11,108 nt of DNA. It comes from a virus. Positions 29 through 9,614 of the stretch are shown in pieces. The DNA is taken from UHGV virus genome UHGV-0246901, one strand, 5' to 3'. Within the stretch, counting starts at the first letter, position 1. Every line of letters starts with the position of its first letter. The notes under the pieces are model-generated. The model was not told the DNA's origin, did not search any database, and saw only the letters and a program-made list of their open reading frames with translations. The position numbers and the translations under genes were made by a program.

Positions 29-56
29 TTGACATAGAAAATTTGGTGAGTATACT
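29..56 (+). promoter_or_regulatory. sigma70-like promoter P1 (TTGACA 29-34, 16-nt spacer, TATACT 51-56)
   Basis: Near-consensus -35 and -10 hexamers with 16-nt spacing, upstream of the 299-1329 module; nearest upstream promoter-like sequence on this strand. Confidence 0.5.
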
Positions 57-86
57 GAGCAGCATAAACCAACGGGTACTCACCAG

Positions 87-125
87 CATCACTTAAGAGT
101 CTTCTCAGAGGGTTTTTAAGTGATG
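87..125 (+). repeat. IR-A copy 1: perfect 10-bp inverted repeat CATCACTTAA/TTAAGTGATG with 19-nt spacer
   Basis: Arms 87-96 and 116-125 are exact reverse complements. The spacer GAGTCTTCTCAGAGGGTTT can pair further (CUUC/GAGG inner stem). Near-identical copy at 1479-1517. About 30 nt downstream of the P1 -10 element, so near the 5' end of the predicted transcript. Confidence 0.7.
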
Positions 126-131
126 TGTAGC

Positions 132-223
132 CCGGTACGGTTTGGTACGGTAGTGTTCTGTGAGGTCGGGTAATGTAAGGTAAGGTATGGGTGGATGGTA
201 GTAGCCACATTAAAAATCTACCA
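132..223 (+). repeat. GT5-H unit 1: (NNGGT)n pentameric tract 132-191 plus stem-loop 196-223
   Basis: Eleven consecutive pentamers ending in GT (ccggt acggt ttggt acggt agtgt tctgt gaggt cgggt aatgt aaggt aaggt), then stem TGGTAG(196-201)/CTACCA(218-223) with loop TAGCCACATTAAAAAT. No ORF; period is 5, not 3. Confidence 0.7.
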
Positions 224-229
224 AGTTTC

Positions 230-258
230 TAAAGAGTCTTCTGTTGAGGGTTCTTTAC
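230..258 (+). repeat. third copy of AAGAGTCTTCT motif (variant with extra bases) ~40 nt upstream of the first CDS
   Basis: TAAAGAGTCTTCTGTTGAGGGTTCTTTAC matches the spacer of IR-A (TAAGAGTCTTCT..AGAGGGTTT) but lacks the flanking 10-bp arms. Confidence 0.4.
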
Positions 259-280
259 AAACAACTTAACAATCAACTAA

Positions 281-886
<606 letters not shown>

Positions 887-888
887 TT

Positions 889-1329
889 ATGAATACAAAA
901 GCATTAGCAGCAAAGTTTAGTTACGGTGACACTGTATCACATTCTGAGATGGACACCTTCTTAGGTATTGTGAAGCCAACTTATCAAGGTGACATTGTTA
1001 AGTACGAAGATGAAATGAAGGCTTATGCACTTACACGTCTAAACCGACTTGAGAAGTTTATTGAAAAGCTTCTTAAAGAAGAGAAGATTTATCTGGTTGC
1101 TTCAATGGGTGTTGGTTATCGTGTGGTTGAACCTAAGCATCAAGCAACTATTGCAAAACGTAAAATGTCTGGTAAGATTGGTCGTGCTTTAAAGCAAGCC
1201 ACTCAAGCAATTGAGAATGTGAATACTATGGCACTTAGTCATCAAGAACGTTCACGACTGATTGAACAGCAAAACCATTTAGCTGCTATGAAAGCTAACA
1301 TTAACAAGCAACGTAGAAAACCTTTCTAA
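889..1329 (+). CDS. hypothetical protein (146 aa, basic C-terminus)
   Basis: ATG two nt after the upstream stop (translational coupling); consistent codon usage; followed directly by an intrinsic terminator. Confidence 0.7.
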   Translation: MNTKALAAKFSYGDTVSHSEMDTFLGIVKPTYQGDIVKYEDEMKAYALTRLNRLEKFIEKLLKEEKIYLVASMGVGYRVVEPKHQATIAKRKMSGKIGRALKQATQAIENVNTMALSHQERSRLIEQQNHLAAMKANINKQRRKPF

Positions 1330-1337
1330 GTTGACTA

Positions 1338-1363
1338 GGAAGCCTCTTCGGAGGCTCCTTTTT
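1338..1363 (+). terminator. rho-independent terminator T1
   Basis: GC-rich stem AGCCTC(1341-1346)/GAGGCT(1351-1356) with TTCG tetraloop, followed by CC and T5 (1359-1363), immediately after the stop of 889-1329. Confidence 0.7.
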
Positions 1364-1390
1364 AAAAGGTCTTTAAACAGGGTCTTTTAA
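1359..1390 (+). repeat. M motif copy 1: TTTTTAAAAGGTCTTTAAACAGGGTCTTTTAA (tandem GGTCTTT)
   Basis: GGTCTTT at 1368-1374 and 1381-1387; whole 32-mer repeated at 1609-1640 with one indel and one substitution; in both copies it starts at the T-run that follows a hairpin. Confidence 0.55.
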
Positions 1391-1391
1391 T

Positions 1392-1478
1392 AAGGTAGGA
1401 TAGGGTGGTGTATGGTTTGGTAAGGTTGTGTAAGGTAAGGTATGGGTAGTTAATCGGAGCTACATTAAAATTCGATTA
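1392..1478 (+). repeat. GT5-H unit 2: pentameric tract 1392-1441 plus stem-loop 1451-1478
   Basis: Ten phased pentamers, nine ending GT; stem TAATCG(1451-1456)/CGATTA(1473-1478), loop GAGCTACATTAAAATT. Stem sequence differs completely from unit 1 but pairing is preserved. Confidence 0.7.
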
Positions 1479-1517
1479 CATCACTTAAGAGTCTTCTAAG
1501 AGGATTTTTAAGTGATG
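1479..1517 (+). repeat. IR-A copy 2: CATCACTTAA / 19 nt / TTAAGTGATG
   Basis: Arms 1479-1488 and 1508-1517 identical to copy 1; spacer GAGTCTTCTAAGAGGATTT differs at 2 positions, one of which converts a G-U to an A-U pair in the inner helix. Confidence 0.7.
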
Positions 1518-1528
1518 TGGGGCGAGGC

Positions 1529-1608
1529 TCGGTGAGGTGGGCTAAGGTATAGCGCGGTGTTGTTCGGTATGGGTAGTTAGTCTCAGCTACATTAAAATGA
1601 GACTTACC
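1529..1608 (+). repeat. GT5-H unit 3: degenerate pentameric tract 1529-1568 plus stem-loop 1572-1608
   Basis: Same 5-nt phase but only about 6 of 10 pentamers end in GT; stem AGTCTCA(1579-1585)/TGAGACT(1598-1604) with outer GGTA/TACC, loop GCTACATTAAAA; followed by T5, so this copy is terminator-like. Confidence 0.6.
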
Positions 1609-1640
1609 TTTTTAAAAGGTCTTTAAAAGGGTCTTTTAAC
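1609..1640 (+). repeat. M motif copy 2: TTTTTAAAAGGTCTTTAAAAGGGTCTTTTAAC
   Basis: GGTCTTT at 1618-1624 and 1630-1636; near-identical to 1359-1390. Confidence 0.55.
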
Positions 1641-1732
1641 AAGGTATTGTATGGTGTAGTTTGGTTAGGTATGGTTAGGTGTGGTAAGGTAAGGTATGGA
1701 AGGATGGCAGTAGCCTTATAAAAAATCTGCCA
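1641..1732 (+). repeat. GT5-H unit 4: (NNGGT)11 tract 1641-1695 plus stem-loop 1705-1732
   Basis: Eleven consecutive pentamers all ending GT (aaggt attgt atggt gtagt ttggt taggt atggt taggt gtggt aaggt aaggt); stem TGGCAG(1705-1710)/CTGCCA(1727-1732), loop TAGCCTTATAAAAAAT. Confidence 0.7.
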
Positions 1733-1750
1733 AATAAGCTATAAAATCTG

Positions 1751-1785
1751 TTGACAAGTCAGGTGTTATAGCTTATTTTTATACT
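1751..1785 (+). promoter_or_regulatory. candidate sigma70-like promoter P2 (TTGACA 1751-1756; -10 TATTTT 1774-1779 at 17 nt, or TATACT 1780-1785 at 23 nt)
   Basis: Consensus -35 hexamer in the same TG-TTGACA context as P1, but no consensus -10 at correct spacing; sits ~40 nt upstream of the operon starting at 1824. Confidence 0.35.
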
Positions 1786-4407: not shown

Positions 4408-5307
4408 ATGTCACAAGCAGATACAAGTTACAAAAATATCCTGAACCATGTTTTATCCGTTGGTGAACTGCGTACTACAAGAACTGGAGATGTTATCTCT
4501 GCATTTGCTCCACCACAGTTTCGCTTTGATATGCGTACTGGTTTTCCACTCTTAACATCTAAACAGGTGTTTACACGGCAAGTTATTGGGGAAGCTTTAT
4601 GGTTCCTGAACGGTGAGAATAAGCTTGGTGAACTTCGTTACCGTACTTGGGGTGAAAATGATGGGGAACGCTGGACTATCTGGTCAGATGATTTTAAACG
4701 CTGGTTAAGCTCTAATTATTCCTCTGAACAAGACTGGTTAGAGGATGCAGGTGGTAGAATCTACGGGGTTCAGTGGAGAAACTTTGAGGGTCATAATGGT
4801 TGTGTTGTAGACCAGTTAGAAACCTTAGTAACGAAGATGAAAGGTGATATCACAGACCGTTACATGCTTGTTAATGCTTGGAATGCAGCAGATATTTCAG
4901 CTAACTCGATGGCTTTAGCACCTTGCCATGTTCTGTTTCAGATTTATATCACTAATGAAGGTGAAGTTGACTTACAATGGTATCAGCGTTCTGTAGACAC
5001 CTTTTTAGGACTTCCGTTTAATATTGCGTCTTATGGCTTCATCTTAGAAGTTCTTTGTAAGATGACTGGATACACTCCACGATACTTGATAGGTGTCTTT
5101 GGAGATACTCAGATTTATCATAACCATATGAAGCAGGTCTATGAACTGATGAACAATGAAGAGTTTCATGCACCTACTTTTGAGATTGGTGTACAGCTTA
5201 ACACTTTAAGTGACTTAAAACATCTTACTGCAAGTGACTTTATTGGTGGAATTATCAACTACCAACATGCAGGGAAGATTGAAGCACCTCTGTCAGTAGG
5301 CAAGTAA
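4408..5307 (+). CDS. td: thymidylate synthase (ThyA type)
   Basis: RTGD, LWFLNG, NAWN, ALAPCH (catalytic Cys), QRS.D.FLGLPFNIASY and GDTQIYHNH motifs match ThyA-family thymidylate synthase; ORF is uninterrupted. Confidence 0.95.
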   Translation: MSQADTSYKNILNHVLSVGELRTTRTGDVISAFAPPQFRFDMRTGFPLLTSKQVFTRQVIGEALWFLNGENKLGELRYRTWGENDGERWTIWSDDFKRWLSSNYSSEQDWLEDAGGRIYGVQWRNFEGHNGCVVDQLETLVTKMKGDITDRYMLVNAWNAADISANSMALAPCHVLFQIYITNEGEVDLQWYQRSVDTFLGLPFNIASYGFILEVLCKMTGYTPRYLIGVFGDTQIYHNHMKQVYELMNNEEFHAPTFEIGVQLNTLSDLKHLTASDFIGGIINYQHAGKIEAPLSVGK

Positions 5308-5350
5308 AACAAAAAAGGCTCCCGTAAAAAGGAGCCTTAAACTTTATTTT
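5305..5350. terminator. bidirectional rho-independent terminator between convergent operons
   Basis: Stem AAGGCTCC(5315-5322)/GGAGCCTT(5331-5338), 8-nt loop. On the minus strand it is followed by a long T-run (complement of A-rich 5305-5314), a strong terminator for the gene ending at 5344; on the plus strand followed by AAACTTTATTTTT (weaker). Confidence 0.7.
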
Positions 5351-5715
5351 TCAGTATTCTTTGTGTTCTTTTCAGTAATAGCTTGGAGGGCTGATACTGA
5401 TTGAGCCAGATTGTTCACACTGTCAGAAAATTTATCAAGAGTTTTGGTAAGTTTTGCGTTTTCACCCTTAACATTCTCTAACTGAACTTTCTGGTTCTCC
5501 ATCCCTAGCTGAATCAGTCTCATGTCAGACTGTAAATCACGAATAGCTGAATAGTTACTTTTGGAATAATTATCCAACTGCTGTAACTTTGTTGTGACAG
5601 ACACTTCTTGTTTACCACTTGAAACTTGCATCGTGGTATACATCCCAATAACACTAAAAATACCAACTACAATTGCACCAATATTATTTTTAAAAGCTTC
5701 CTCTAGCCACTTCAT
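5344..5715 (-). CDS. membrane-anchored coiled-coil protein (123 aa); possible i-spanin-like or holin/exclusion-type protein
   Basis: N-terminal hydrophobic helix IGAIVVGIFSVIGMYTT followed by Q/L/N/K-rich heptad-like sequence; strong SD GGGGGAG; TAAATG junction with upstream gene. Function is a guess from topology only. Confidence 0.65.
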   Translation of the reverse strand: MKWLEEAFKNNIGAIVVGIFSVIGMYTTMQVSSGKQEVSVTTKLQQLDNYSKSNYSAIRDLQSDMRLIQLGMENQKVQLENVKGENAKLTKTLDKFSDSVNNLAQSVSALQAITEKNTKNTEK

Positions 5716-8426: not shown

Positions 8427-9614
8427 TTAAGCTGTTCTCTGCCATACATACAGGACGAAGGATGGCTGCTCAATGTTGAAAGCTTGTCCACCACCAACAC
8501 TATTAGTGTTCCCGCTATGCGTATGCTCAGAAGAAGAAACTGTTACAGTGCCATTGTGTGTATGTGAACCAATACCAACTGTGTGGCTGTGAGCACCAAT
8601 ACCAACCGTATGGTTGTGGTTACCAGTTGTATTAGTGGTAACACTGAAAGAGTGGGTGTGTGCACCAGCTACTTCACAGACAGCATCTGCTGAGTACCAT
8701 GATTGGTCATTCCTTGTAGACCAAACCATTGCAGGTCTTTCCGATAAACCACCACCTGCTTCATAGGTCAATCTGTGGTTGTGAGCACCAGCAGAACTTG
8801 TTGACCCACTACCAACATGGTTATGGTTACCAGTCGTGTTAGTGGTCTTAGTTCCATAGTCAAAAGAGTTAGTAGTCTTAGTTCCATAATCAAAAGCTGA
8901 AATTGACACCGTTGCATTATGAGTATGACCACCACCACTAAGAGACACAGAGTGAGAGTGTTGAGGCATGTTATTAACTGACAAAGTGACAGTTGAAGCA
9001 CCAAATACAGAACCTGCTGGTCTTGTGTCAGAGTCATAACCAACCAATGCTCTACCCTTTGAAACTAACTCCCAAGTACCTCCACAAATTAAATATGTAG
9101 AGGGGTTTGCAGAGTTCATGGAAAGATGGATAGTACCTACTGGATAGGAAGCCTGAACAGCCTTGTACAAGTTATTTACTGCTCTTGCTGTAGCGTACTT
9201 ATCTGCATCCTCATTATAAAGGTTAGATGTTGTCCAGTTCTGAACATTACTCAATCCTACCTGTGCCTTAGTTGTATTGTGTGGGTTGCTCTTGTCCTGA
9301 ATATGCTGTTGAACAAGGTTATTAACCTCTTCTGAAGACATAATCTGTAGATTTGCTCTTGCCTCAGCTACATTAACAACATCTGATAAGTTATTTGCAG
9401 CAACTAACTGAAGAGCATTAATAACATTATCTAAACCAATTTGTGTTTTAGTAACACCATGAGGGTTATTTCTTAGGCTTGAGTGTGGAGCAAGTAATTG
9501 CTCAAGAGTACATCTCTTATCCTCAATACCTTGCTTAAGATGGAAGATATCACTAAGGTCAATTGGTAAGGCTGCTTGAGGCAAGGCACTAATTTGAATT
9601 TCACCTACCGCCAT
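8427..9614 (-). CDS. tail fibre protein (395 aa), paralogue of the 796-aa protein
   Basis: N-terminal repeats NPHGVTKTQIGLDNV / NPHNTTKAQVGLSNV (phage tail-fibre repeat-like); collar-like segment ICGGTWELVSKGRALVG...NNMPQHSHSVS; nine HxH motifs; C-terminus ...VWQRTA; SD AGGAG ~8 nt upstream. Confidence 0.85.
   Translation of the reverse strand: MAVGEIQISALPQAALPIDLSDIFHLKQGIEDKRCTLEQLLAPHSSLRNNPHGVTKTQIGLDNVINALQLVAANNLSDVVNVAEARANLQIMSSEEVNNLVQQHIQDKSNPHNTTKAQVGLSNVQNWTTSNLYNEDADKYATARAVNNLYKAVQASYPVGTIHLSMNSANPSTYLICGGTWELVSKGRALVGYDSDTRPAGSVFGASTVTLSVNNMPQHSHSVSLSGGGHTHNATVSISAFDYGTKTTNSFDYGTKTTNTTGNHNHVGSGSTSSAGAHNHRLTYEAGGGLSERPAMVWSTRNDQSWYSADAVCEVAGAHTHSFSVTTNTTGNHNHTVGIGAHSHTVGIGSHTHNGTVTVSSSEHTHSGNTNSVGGGQAFNIEQPSFVLYVWQRTA
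8841..8900 (-). repeat. in-frame 30-bp tandem duplication within the 395-aa tail-fibre gene
   Basis: 8841-8870 and 8871-8900 match at 26 of 30 positions and encode a tandem SFDYGTKTTN repeat; the 796-aa paralogue has a single FDYGTKNTN. Confidence 0.8.

What the first reader, a model, noticed from the sequence alone, without database searches (positions are those of the whole stretch)
1572..1613. One member of the conserved hairpin family doubles as an intrinsic terminator
Hairpin H3 has the family loop but is immediately followed by T5, unlike H1, H2 and H4. The same structural module therefore appears both with and without a U-tract, suggesting graded termination within the intergenic cassette array, or a module whose primary role is not termination.
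Basis: seen in the sequence. Interest (0 to 1): 0.4.

Follow-up and report, generated by a model that had tools for sequence, protein, structure and literature searches.

The report
VIPR guide-RNA tail, not a dedicated terminator
The hairpin followed by five T's is the conserved 3' pseudoknot "tail" of one guide RNA in a recently described phage RNA-guided silencing system (VIPR), and the T-run belongs to the spacer hairpin that starts the next unit, so it is at most a leaky terminator.

Summary
At 1572-1613 a stem-loop with the family loop is followed by TTTTT, and the other three family members lack this.

The window is a Felix O1-like phage segment carrying a type II VIPR locus:
- Gene 299-886 is Vipr, 192/195 aa identical to SUSP1 Vipr (PDB 36pp).
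- Gene 889-1329 is vap1, 145/146 identical to SUSP1.
- The GGT-rich tracts are vrRNA guide regions made of GGY/NN pentamers.
- The four "hairpins" are the invariant vrRNA 3' tails. They fold as H-type pseudoknots (97% of cells paired, 8 of 9 pairs covary).

The T5 is the first part of the 5' arm of the next inter-guide spacer hairpin. The same 21-mer follows the true terminator after vap.

Reaching the T5 requires a lower stem, GGGUA/UACCU. That stem excludes both the pseudoknot and the spacer hairpin.

In SUSP1 the same junction precedes two further vrRNAs that were detected by sRNA-seq. In 16 of 18 relatives it lies between the promoter and vipr. Termination there can therefore be only partial.

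Two of the window's guides match a satellite island promoter and gene start under the published 1-nt-skip rule.

The system is already known; the terminator idea remains untested.

The parts
29..56 (+). P1, sigma70-type promoter (TTGACA-16-TATACT) driving vrRNA1 and the vipr-vap operon
   Evidence: Matches 11 of 12 consensus positions. Conserved at a fixed 33 nt before the first spacer hairpin in all related loci.
86..126 (+). Spacer hairpin A1 (19 bp, 5 G-U pairs) 5' of vrRNA1
   Evidence: Fold -20.0 kcal/mol, z = -5.5. The sense strand is much more stable than the antisense across homologues.
134..188 (+). vrRNA1 guide region, 11 GGY/NN pentamers
   Evidence: Pentamer register. Family profile: G .79, G .96, T .87, N, N.
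   Evidence: Covariation on alignment A2. Coordinates.
225..262 (+). Spacer hairpin D' between vrRNA1 and the vipr ribosome-binding site
   Evidence: Fold -13.6 kcal/mol with 13 WC and 3 G-U pairs; antisense -8.9.
299..886 (+). vipr, the RAMP-family protein that polymerises on vrRNA
   Evidence: 192/195 aa identical to PDB 36pp_D 'SUSP1 Vipr protein', E = 2e-128. AF2 model pLDDT 95. No Pfam hit; PHROG 4652.
889..1329 (+). vap1, the VIPR accessory protein
   Evidence: 145/146 aa identical to the SUSP1 gene downstream of vipr. Named vap1 in bioRxiv 10.64898/2026.04.26.720920.
1341..1363 (+). Canonical intrinsic terminator T (AGCCTC-TTCG-GAGGCT, then CCTTTTT) after vap
   Evidence: Listed by the terminator scan. 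Fold -13.6 kcal/mol.
1357..1395 (+). Spacer hairpin D1; its 5' arm contains the U-run of terminator T
1394..1443 (+). vrRNA2 guide region, 10 pentamers
   Evidence: Register. Under the 1-nt-skip rule it matches 18/20 at satellite island L057 11641-11669; null maximum 15.1 +/- 0.7.
1476..1520 (+). Spacer hairpin A2 (21 bp, 5 G-U pairs)
   Evidence: Fold -24.9 kcal/mol, z = -9.0.
1516..1570 (+). vrRNA3 guide region, 11 pentamers. The 6th repeat, GCT at 1541-1543, is off consensus.
   Evidence: Register. No target found in the sequences held.
1571..1605 (+). vrRNA3 3' tail, the flagged hairpin H3. Pseudoknot stem 1 is 1573-1576 with 1587-1590. Stem 2 is 1579-1583 with 1600-1604 (the five pairs tested on A2), extended in this copy by C1584-G1599.
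1609..1613 (+). The T5 run, part of the 5' arm of spacer hairpin D2
   Evidence: Identical 21-mer at 1357-1377 and 1607-1627 (family D6). Pairing within D2 shown.
1605..1646 (+). Spacer hairpin D2 (outer stem UACCUU/AAGGUA, inner 12 bp)
   Evidence: Fold -14.0 kcal/mol; antisense -9.3. Predicted in the 411-nt fold of the whole array.
1643..1697 (+). vrRNA4 guide region, 11 pentamers
   Evidence: Matches 20/22 at L184 12638-12669 and 19/22 at L057 11041-11072. The L057 site overlaps the -10 element of the island promoter; null maximum 16.2 +/- 0.7.
1751..1779 (+). P2 promoter-like site (TTGACA-17-TATTTT) for the downstream operon, embedded in inverted repeat 1732-1778
   Evidence: inverted repeat I3.

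Best explanation
The flagged element is the junction between two modules of a VIPR (Viral Interference Programmable Repeat) guide-RNA array.

Shown by sequence and comparison here:
- The window carries vipr (299-886) and vap1 (889-1329), with one vrRNA upstream and three downstream.
- Each vrRNA consists of 10-11 GGY/NN pentamers followed by an invariant ~35-nt tail.
- The tail folds as an H-type pseudoknot. Stem 1 pairs the GUAG just after the last repeat with the CUAC of the "family loop". The A-rich AUUAAAAU is loop 3.
- Consecutive vrRNAs are separated by long hairpins rich in G-U pairs (A and D types).
- The T5 after H3 forms the first bases of the 5' arm of spacer hairpin D2.

Taken from the 2026 preprints on SUSP1:
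- Vipr protomers polymerise on the GGY repeats.
- The NN dinucleotides read double-stranded DNA with one skipped base per repeat and repress transcription, mainly of a satellite that parasitises the phage.

Inferred:
- The array is transcribed as a precursor, and the A/D hairpins are the processing or spacing modules. RNase III is the obvious candidate. They would be functionally analogous to the hammerhead ribozymes interspersed in other VIPR types.
- The H3+U5 arrangement is a consequence of a tail abutting a D-type spacer, not a dedicated terminator.
- It may still cause some termination, because the nascent RNA can transiently form GGGUA/UACCU next to the U-run. That termination must be leaky.
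For: Identity of the system:
- Vipr is 192/195 identical to PDB 36pp_D.
- vap1 is 145/146 identical to SUSP1.
- The pentamer profile over ~980 repeats from 85 distinct tracts is G .79, G .96, T .87, then two near-random positions. Tract length is quantised in 5-nt steps.
- Pseudoknot covariation: 97.4% of cells paired, 8/9 pairs with double changes, slid controls at most 46%.
- The architecture of one upstream and three downstream vrRNAs matches SUSP1.
- vrRNA4 and vrRNA2 match satellite-island sites at 20/22 and 18/20. Only the 1-nt skip gives matches above the null; skips of 0, 2 and 3 do not.
- The same protein family sits immediately upstream of GGTNN tracts in 26 of 41 unrelated viral loci.

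The U-run belongs to the spacer:
- The identical 21-mer follows terminator T and H3.
- The D hairpin pairs CCUU with AAGG and UUAAAAGGUCUU with AGGGUCUUUUAA. The sense strand gives -11 to -21 kcal/mol against -4 to -10 for the antisense. Two variants, CCTCATT and CCTTATT, break the U-run yet perfect the hairpin.

Termination is not strong:
- In SUSP1 the same junction (GAGACTCACCTTTTT) precedes vrRNA3 and vrRNA4, both detected by sRNA-seq in 10.64898/2026.04.26.720920.
- The junction lies between P1 and vipr in 16 of 18 loci.
- One H3 tail, SUSP1 vrRNA3, is followed by an A spacer with no U-run and is still a mature vrRNA.
Against: - H3 with its lower stem reaches -12.5 kcal/mol. That is as stable as the two canonical terminators in the window, at -13.6 and -13.5.
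- The lower stem ends in G-C pairs directly before four or five U's.
- The TACC/CACC + TTTTT junction is conserved in 32 of 35 H3 tails, so some termination is plausible.
- Nothing here measures 3' ends.
- The preprints do not discuss how type II vrRNA ends are made; the word 'terminator' never occurs in them. The figures with per-guide coverage are not available to me.
- The RNase III role of the spacers is pure inference.
- No target was found for vrRNA3 itself.
Confidence: 0.8

Rival explanations
1. H3 plus U5 is a genuine, moderately efficient intrinsic terminator. It would set the 3' end of vrRNA3, or of the first leader vrRNA in most relatives, and would grade the amount of transcription reaching downstream guides or vipr.
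For: - Extended hairpin of -12.5 kcal/mol directly followed by U4-5.
- The junction is conserved in 32 of 35 H3 tails.
- The satellite's stand-alone vrRNA gene ends with a canonical terminator 2-8 nt after its tail, so a 3' end right after the tail is a natural configuration.
Against: - The loop is 12-14 nt, there is a 3-nt bulge, and only 5 G-C pairs occur among the 12 stem pairs. The consensus scan did not list it.
- The lower stem competes with pseudoknot stem 1.
- The U-run is fully accounted for by the D hairpin.
- Downstream vrRNAs are expressed in SUSP1 (preprint).
- The junction sits upstream of vipr in 16 of 18 loci.
- Tails without a U-run also yield ~100-nt vrRNAs in SUSP1.
Confidence: 0.25
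2. The junction is a Vipr-responsive attenuator. Without Vipr the nascent RNA forms GGGUA/UACCU and terminates at U5. When Vipr binds the last GGY repeats and stabilises the pseudoknot, the lower stem cannot form and RNA polymerase reads on into the next guide or into vipr. Guide and protein output would then be coupled.
For: - The lower stem uses the last repeat-like GGG and the 5' strand of pseudoknot stem 1, so the two folds are mutually exclusive.
- The junction is placed before vipr in most relatives.
- The logic resembles TRAP-mediated attenuation on triplet repeats (my own knowledge, not tested here).
Against: - There is no experimental support.
- The preprints' cryo-EM intermediates of DNA unwinding resolve Vipr protomers progressively from the 3' pseudoknot toward the 5' end. 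If RNP assembly on nascent vrRNA runs the same way (my inference), it could start only once the tail is complete, leaving little time before the U-run is transcribed.
- The window itself and SUSP1 lack this junction upstream of vipr.
Confidence: 0.08
3. The repeats act at the DNA level, and the hairpin/T5 is incidental to that. Candidate roles were a replication origin or R-loop element, a G-quadruplex tract, a packaging signal, or a GT-rich recombination hot spot.
For: - Extreme G over C skew on the sense strand.
- The vipr-vap cassette is gained or lost between flanking arrays, and unit copy number varies. The repeats do evidently recombine.
Against: - Hairpins carry 3-7 G-U pairs and are stable only on the sense strand.
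- The conserved GGY with free NN is explained by protein recognition in the VIPR structures (preprint .720927).
- Guides match targets under the published rule.
- The locus is about 44 kb from the probable genome termini, assuming the records with DTR calls were deposited starting at those termini.
- GC skew simply follows gene orientation.
Confidence: 0.03

Closest known systems
Type II VIPR system of Escherichia phage SUSP1 (Vipr + vap1 + vrRNAs; bioRxiv 10.64898/2026.04.26.720920 and 10.64898/2026.04.26.720927; PDB 36pp)
   Same: - Vipr is 98% and vap1 99% identical.
- Same layout: one vrRNA upstream and three downstream.
- Same GGY/NN repeat code.
- Three of the four tail types (H1, H3, H4) are identical in sequence to SUSP1 tails.
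- Same A/D spacer hairpins, same terminator T and same P2.
- Guides aim at the same family of satellite islands.
   Different: - The NN guide content differs.
- The window has an H2-type tail as its second guide where SUSP1 has a second H3.
- The host phage is a Felixounavirus-like genome rather than a Suspvirus.
- The preprints do not describe the spacer hairpins, the U-run or 3'-end formation.
Rho-independent (intrinsic) terminators of E. coli
   Same: A stem-loop directly followed by a U-run. The free energy is comparable to the true terminators in the window.
   Different: - Loop of 12-14 nt instead of 3-8.
- AU-rich, bulged stem.
- Only 4-5 U's, followed by AAAA.
- The hairpin is one of two or three competing folds.
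- Downstream genes and guides still need transcription through it.
CRISPR crRNA repeat handle in class 1 systems
   Same: An invariant structured element caps a variable guide region. It marks unit boundaries in a multi-guide array and is bound by a RAMP-family protein (analogy drawn in the preprint).
   Different: - The tail is a pseudoknot at the 3' end of each unit.
- Guides are gapped pentamer repeats, not contiguous spacers.
- No Cas6-like processing enzyme is known.
- Units are separated by extra long hairpins.
Hammerhead-ribozyme-interspersed vrRNA arrays (VIPR types I and V) and RNase III sites between phage T7 early genes
   Same: Structured RNA modules between functional units of a polycistronic precursor, likely defining the unit ends.
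   Different: The A/D spacers here are plain 16-21-bp hairpins rich in G-U pairs, with no ribozyme core. Cleavage by RNase III is my inference, not a test.

Membership tests
VIPR (type II, SUSP1 clade) | A Vipr protein (minimal RAMP homologue) encoded in the locus | tested here: met
   phmmer against PDB chains finds 36pp_D 'SUSP1 Vipr protein' at E = 2.1e-128, with 192/195 identical residues. A profile of 49 homologues gives E = 1.9e-79.
VIPR (type II, SUSP1 clade) | An accessory gene (vap) next to vipr | tested here: met
   Window 889-1329 is 145/146 aa identical to the SUSP1 gene downstream of vipr.
VIPR (type II, SUSP1 clade) | vrRNAs made of 9-16 tandem pentamers with conserved GGY and hypervariable NN | tested here: met
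   The window has 10-11 pentamers per tract. The family profile has information content 1.05, 1.70, 1.38, 0.09 and 0.11 bits at the five positions. GGTNN periodicity gives 20 matches against 0.06 expected.
VIPR (type II, SUSP1 clade) | An invariant 3' tail after the repeats that folds with a pseudoknot | tested here: met
   17 distinct tails, 9 pairs in two crossing helices, 97.4% of cells paired, 8 pairs with compensatory changes, 0 of 500 shuffles reach the score, slid controls 27-46%.
VIPR (type II, SUSP1 clade) | Guides match natural DNA targets under the 1-nt-skip rule, mostly on a satellite of the phage | tested here: met
   vrRNA4 matches 20/22 and vrRNA2 matches 18/20 on E. coli island sites. 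Shuffled-order null maxima are 16.2 and 15.1. Skips of 0, 2 and 3 give nothing above the null. vrRNA1 at 17/22 is marginal and vrRNA3 has no match in the sequences held.
VIPR (type II, SUSP1 clade) | ~100-nt vrRNAs are expressed and co-purify with Vipr; the RNP represses transcription | not testable with these tools
   Shown for SUSP1 in the preprints. Assumed here from 98-99% protein identity and identical tails.
Intrinsic (Rho-independent) terminator | A stable stem-loop immediately followed by a U-run | tested here: met
   -12.5 kcal/mol with the lower stem, then UUUU(U)AAA.
Intrinsic (Rho-independent) terminator | A compact GC-rich hairpin with a short loop (3-8 nt) | tested here: not met
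   The loop is 12 nt (14 without the A-U closing pair), there is a 3-nt bulge, and only 5 G-C pairs occur among the 12 stem pairs. It is absent from the consensus scan, which lists 1341-1356 and 5315-5338.
Intrinsic (Rho-independent) terminator | The terminator hairpin is the fold adopted when the U-run is in the RNA-DNA hybrid | tested here: inconclusive
   The lower stem shares G1573-A1575 with pseudoknot stem 1 and UACC with the D2 outer stem. Co-transcriptional kinetics cannot be computed here.
Intrinsic (Rho-independent) terminator | Transcripts end at the U-run and downstream transcription drops | not testable with these tools
   Indirect evidence is against strong termination. SUSP1 vrRNA3 and vrRNA4 lie downstream of the same junction and are detected (preprint). 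The junction lies between P1 and vipr in 16 of 18 loci.

The most novel reading that the evidence does not exclude
The H3/U5 junction is a protein-responsive attenuator. The terminator-like lower stem (GGGUA/UACCU) and the Vipr-bound pseudoknot are alternative folds of the same nucleotides. Vipr occupancy of the nascent guide would then decide whether RNA polymerase stops after that guide or continues into the next guide. In most relatives the next stretch includes vipr itself. Separately, the G-U-rich A/D hairpins would be the RNase III processing sites that release type II vrRNAs. That step is not addressed in the published descriptions.
Probability: 0.1. Interest if true: 0.5.

Novelty: already known. 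Interest (0 to 1): 0.25.

Why it matters
The hairpin family and its GGT-rich neighbours are the guide RNAs of VIPR. VIPR is a phage-borne RNA-guided DNA-silencing system that its discoverers propose as older than CRISPR.

Recognising it explains the whole intergenic "cassette array" in this window:
- guides;
- tails;
- spacers;
- the variable copy number;
- the gain and loss of the two-gene cassette between the arrays.

It also shows that this phage aims at least two guides at the promoter and an early gene start of a satellite island in E. coli.

The remaining open point is small but real. How type II vrRNA precursors are transcribed past two U-run junctions, and how they are cut into ~100-nt units, has not been described. 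The spacer hairpins and this U-run are the obvious elements to test.

Tried and rejected
- **Known RNA families:** an Rfam search at E <= 10 on the window and at E <= 1 on the satellite island gave nothing at the repeats. No tRNA or tmRNA was found.
- **Mini-ORFs:** ATG GGT AGT TAA and similar sit at the tract/tail boundary. Rejected because the ATG is replaced by GTG, GCG or TAA in relatives.
- **Genome-wide repeat:** rejected. In phage heid the modules occur only in the two intergenic regions flanking vipr-vap.
- **Replication origin:** cumulative GC skew only mirrors gene orientation.
- **Packaging or terminal-repeat signal:** rejected. In phage records from a study reporting direct terminal repeats, the locus is about 44 kb from the record start. 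This assumes those records were deposited starting at the termini.
- **Other readings held before the protein link was found:** a TRAP-like ring-protein site, a two-tetrad G-quadruplex, an SD-like ribosome standby track, a tRNA-CCA sponge, an RNA polymerase pause array and a RecA hot spot. All were superseded once the adjacent protein matched PDB 36pp.
- **Exact-pattern scan of GTDB genomes for tail-like sequence:** gave only chance matches.
- **Literature searches** on Felixounavirus repeats, transcriptomes and satellites found nothing before the VIPR preprints surfaced.
- **Target of vrRNA3:** none above the null in the phage genome, the window, or about 100 kb of island sequence.
- **Structure search:** I did not run one on the AF2 model, because the sequence match to a solved structure made it unnecessary.

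Full report
**Observation.** Window 1572-1613 reads GGTAGTTAGTCTCAGCTACATTAAAATGAGACTTACCTTTTT. As RNA, 1568-1616 folds into a 7-bp upper stem, a 12-nt loop, and a 5-bp lower stem (GGGUA/UACCU) across a 3-nt bulge, followed by U4-5. Free energy is -12.5 kcal/mol (z = -2.7); the upper stem alone gives -7.8. Three other hairpins carry the same loop (tails 189-223, 1444-1478 and 1698-1732), and none is followed by a T-run. The loop motif occurs 4 times exactly, all on the + strand, against 0.6 expected even with one mismatch allowed.

**Local anatomy.** The intergenic region 1330-1823 is a diverged tandem array with a 127-nt period. Each unit has three parts:
- a long hairpin of type A or D;
- a 50-55-nt C-poor tract with strict 5-nt periodicity;
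- the hairpin with the conserved loop.

A fourth unit lies in the leader of gene 299-886, downstream of a near-consensus promoter at 29-56. The T5 after H3 is part of a 21-mer, CCTTTTTAAAAGGTCTTTAAA. The same 21-mer also follows the canonical terminator at 1341-1356 (family D6).

Folding shows that this sequence is the 5' arm of the D hairpin. CCUU pairs with the AAGG that opens the next tract, and UUAAAAGGUCUU pairs with AGGGUCUUUUAA. A, D and D' hairpins all carry 3-7 G-U pairs and are far more stable on the sense strand than on the antisense. Two natural variants break the U-run (CCTCATT, CCTTATT) while perfecting the D stem. In the 411-nt fold of the whole array, UACCUU pairs into D2 and only the upper stem of H3 remains.

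**Source and comparison.** The window is a Felix O1-like myovirus segment; 231 phage records match at 90-96% identity. A scan of a complete relative (phage heid) finds the modules only in the two intergenic regions flanking the two-gene cassette, always on the coding strand.

Across 29 related loci only four hairpin types exist. The order is fixed: H1 precedes D' and the first gene, H2 precedes A, H3 precedes D, and H4 precedes promoter P2. Unit number varies. Seven of the 29 loci lack the two genes altogether yet keep the arrays.

Over 85 distinct tracts (~980 pentamers) the profile is G .79, G .96, T .87, followed by two near-random positions. Tract length changes in 5-nt steps.

**How the identity was found.** An exact scan for (GGTNN)5GGT in IMG/VR returned more than 120 unrelated viral contigs. 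Many carry arrays of degenerate tracts lying between same-strand ORFs. Clustering the ORFs of 41 such loci gave one protein family present in 26 of them. Its gene lies immediately upstream of the first tract, and the window's gene 299-886 belongs to that family.

The family has no Pfam model and has hundreds of uncharacterised homologues. A profile built from 49 of them hits one PDB entry, 36pp 'SUSP1 Vipr protein', at E = 1.9e-79. The window protein alone gives E = 2.1e-128 with 192/195 identical residues. The next gene is 145/146 identical to SUSP1 vap1. Locus L020 is SUSP1 itself at 100% identity.

**What is known about the system.** Two 2026 preprints describe it (10.64898/2026.04.26.720920 and 10.64898/2026.04.26.720927):
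- VIPR systems consist of Vipr, a minimal RAMP protein, a vap accessory gene, and vrRNAs.
- vrRNAs contain 9-16 YNNGG repeats followed by an invariant 3' tail. In the SUSP1 clade the tail forms a pseudoknot.
- In SUSP1-infected cells four ~100-nt vrRNAs were detected, one upstream of the genes and three downstream.
- Vipr polymerises on the repeats, and the pseudoknot caps the 3' end.
- The NN dinucleotides read double-stranded DNA with one skipped base per repeat and repress transcription.
- Most SUSP1-clade guides target a satellite phage. Some of those satellites carry their own vrRNAs.

Neither paper mentions terminators or how type II arrays are processed. Other VIPR types have hammerhead ribozymes between guides.

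**Tests made here.**
1. *Pseudoknot.* On 17 distinct tails from phages and islands, stem 1 (columns 3-6 with 17-20: GUAG:CUAC, GUGG:CCAC, AAGG:CCUU) and stem 2 (columns 9-13 with 30-34) are 97.4% paired. Eight of nine pairs show compensatory change. No shuffle out of 500 reaches the covariation score, and slid controls give 27-46%. The "family loop" is therefore the 3' strand of stem 1 plus an A-rich loop 3.
2. *Targets.* Under the 1-nt-skip rule, vrRNA4 matches 20/22 at L184 12638-12669 and 19/22 at L057 11041-11072; the L057 site overlaps the -10 element of the island's TTGACA-17-TAATAT promoter. vrRNA2 matches 18/20 over the RBS and start codon of the second island gene. Null maxima are 16.2 and 15.1, and skips of 0, 2 and 3 give nothing above the null. 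vrRNA1 is marginal. vrRNA3, the guide attached to H3, has no match in the sequences held and carries one off-consensus repeat (GCT).
3. *Satellite.* Before reading the preprints I had found the same island independently. It carries a stand-alone tract + tail with its own promoter and a canonical terminator, and lies in about 11-kb E. coli islands at yecE, yciI/kch and ymdF/rutG. Those islands encode tape-measure and baseplate proteins homologous to the phage's.

**Bearing on the terminator idea.**

For:
- The extended H3 hairpin is as stable as the window's real terminators.
- It abuts U4-5.
- The junction is conserved in 32 of 35 H3 tails.

Against:
- The loop is 12-14 nt and the stem is bulged and GC-poor. 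The consensus scan does not list it.
- The lower stem shares nucleotides with pseudoknot stem 1 and with the D2 outer stem, so it cannot coexist with the functional fold.
- The U-run is fully explained by D2.
- SUSP1 has the same junction after vrRNA2, and vrRNA3 and vrRNA4 downstream were detected.
- SUSP1 vrRNA3 has an H3 tail followed by an A spacer with no U-run and is still a discrete vrRNA.
- In 16 of 18 loci the junction lies between P1 and vipr.

A strong terminator is therefore excluded by context. A leaky one is possible but untested.

**Verdict.** The feature is real, but it is one junction in an already described system. The hairpin's primary role is as the vrRNA tail pseudoknot. 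The T5 is the start of the next spacer hairpin.

The analysis adds these points beyond the published text:
- the description of the A/D/D' spacer hairpins and their sense-strand specificity;
- the mutually exclusive folds at the H3/D junction;
- the module grammar across relatives;
- the loss of vipr-vap with retention of guide arrays in part of the genus;
- predicted satellite targets for two of this phage's guides.

Noticed in passing
L057 9400-9600 (minus strand); L013 380-620 (minus strand); L058-L063: E. coli chromosomal islands of about 11 kb lie at yecE, yciI/kch or ymdF/rutG. They carry a stand-alone vrRNA gene: sigma70 promoter, ~50-nt leader, 10-12 GGY/NN repeats, an H1-like tail and a canonical terminator. 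No vipr homologue was detected in them. They encode tape-measure and baseplate proteins up to 87% identical to the phage's. This matches the 'satellite with its own vrRNAs' of the preprint. Megablast of 4 kb of the island hits 541 of 5426 complete E. coli genomes.
   Followed up: yes
window 299-1329 versus relatives: The vipr-vap cassette (97-99% nucleotide identity) is present in only 118 of the 231 related phage records. Seven of 29 loci examined have P1-spacer-guide(s)-P2 with no vipr or vap. Orphan guide arrays therefore persist without the protein, and the cassette appears to be gained or lost by recombination between the flanking arrays.
   Followed up: partly
window 86-126, 225-262, 1357-1395, 1476-1520, 1605-1646: The inter-guide spacer hairpins (types A, D and D') are homologous 16-21-bp stems with 3-7 G-U pairs. 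They are stable only on the sense strand. They are not described in the text of the VIPR preprints. They are candidate processing sites, possibly for RNase III.
   Followed up: partly
window 1732-1778: A 19-nt inverted repeat (AAATAAGCTATAAAATCTG / CAGGTGTTATAGCTTATTT) brackets the -35 box of promoter P2. It may be an operator. An HTH_3 regulator gene lies just downstream at 2414-2713.
   Followed up: no
window 1516-1570: vrRNA3, the guide attached to the flagged hairpin, has an off-consensus repeat (GCT at 1541-1543, in a position that is 96% G) and several GGC/AGC/TGT repeats. No target was found for it, so it may be a decaying guide.
   Followed up: partly
IMG/VR loci L064-L182 (for example L085, L087, L095, L099, L158): Unrelated viral contigs carry Vipr homologues followed by arrays of 6-37 GGY/NN repeats with other linkers. 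L099 has 17 units separated by GGAATGGTTTAATGAATTTAATTT. L087 has 9 units separated by AAGGCTAATGGGT. These arrays show no long spacer hairpins and illustrate other VIPR array architectures.
   Followed up: partly
window 5315-5338: A symmetric hairpin (AAGGCTCC...GGAGCCTT) with T-runs on both strands lies between convergent thyA (4408-5307, +) and the holin gene (5344-5715, -). It is a likely bidirectional terminator.
   Followed up: no
GenBank GU169904.1 (hit H5): The record named Staphylococcus phage SA1 (147 kb) contains this Felix O1-like region at 94% identity. This suggests a chimeric or contaminated assembly.
   Followed up: no
window 8555-8618 and 8838-8896: 27-nt and 30-nt tandem repeats (2-2.5 copies) lie inside the minus-strand ORF 8427-9614, a tail fibre gene by synteny with phage heid.
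   Followed up: no
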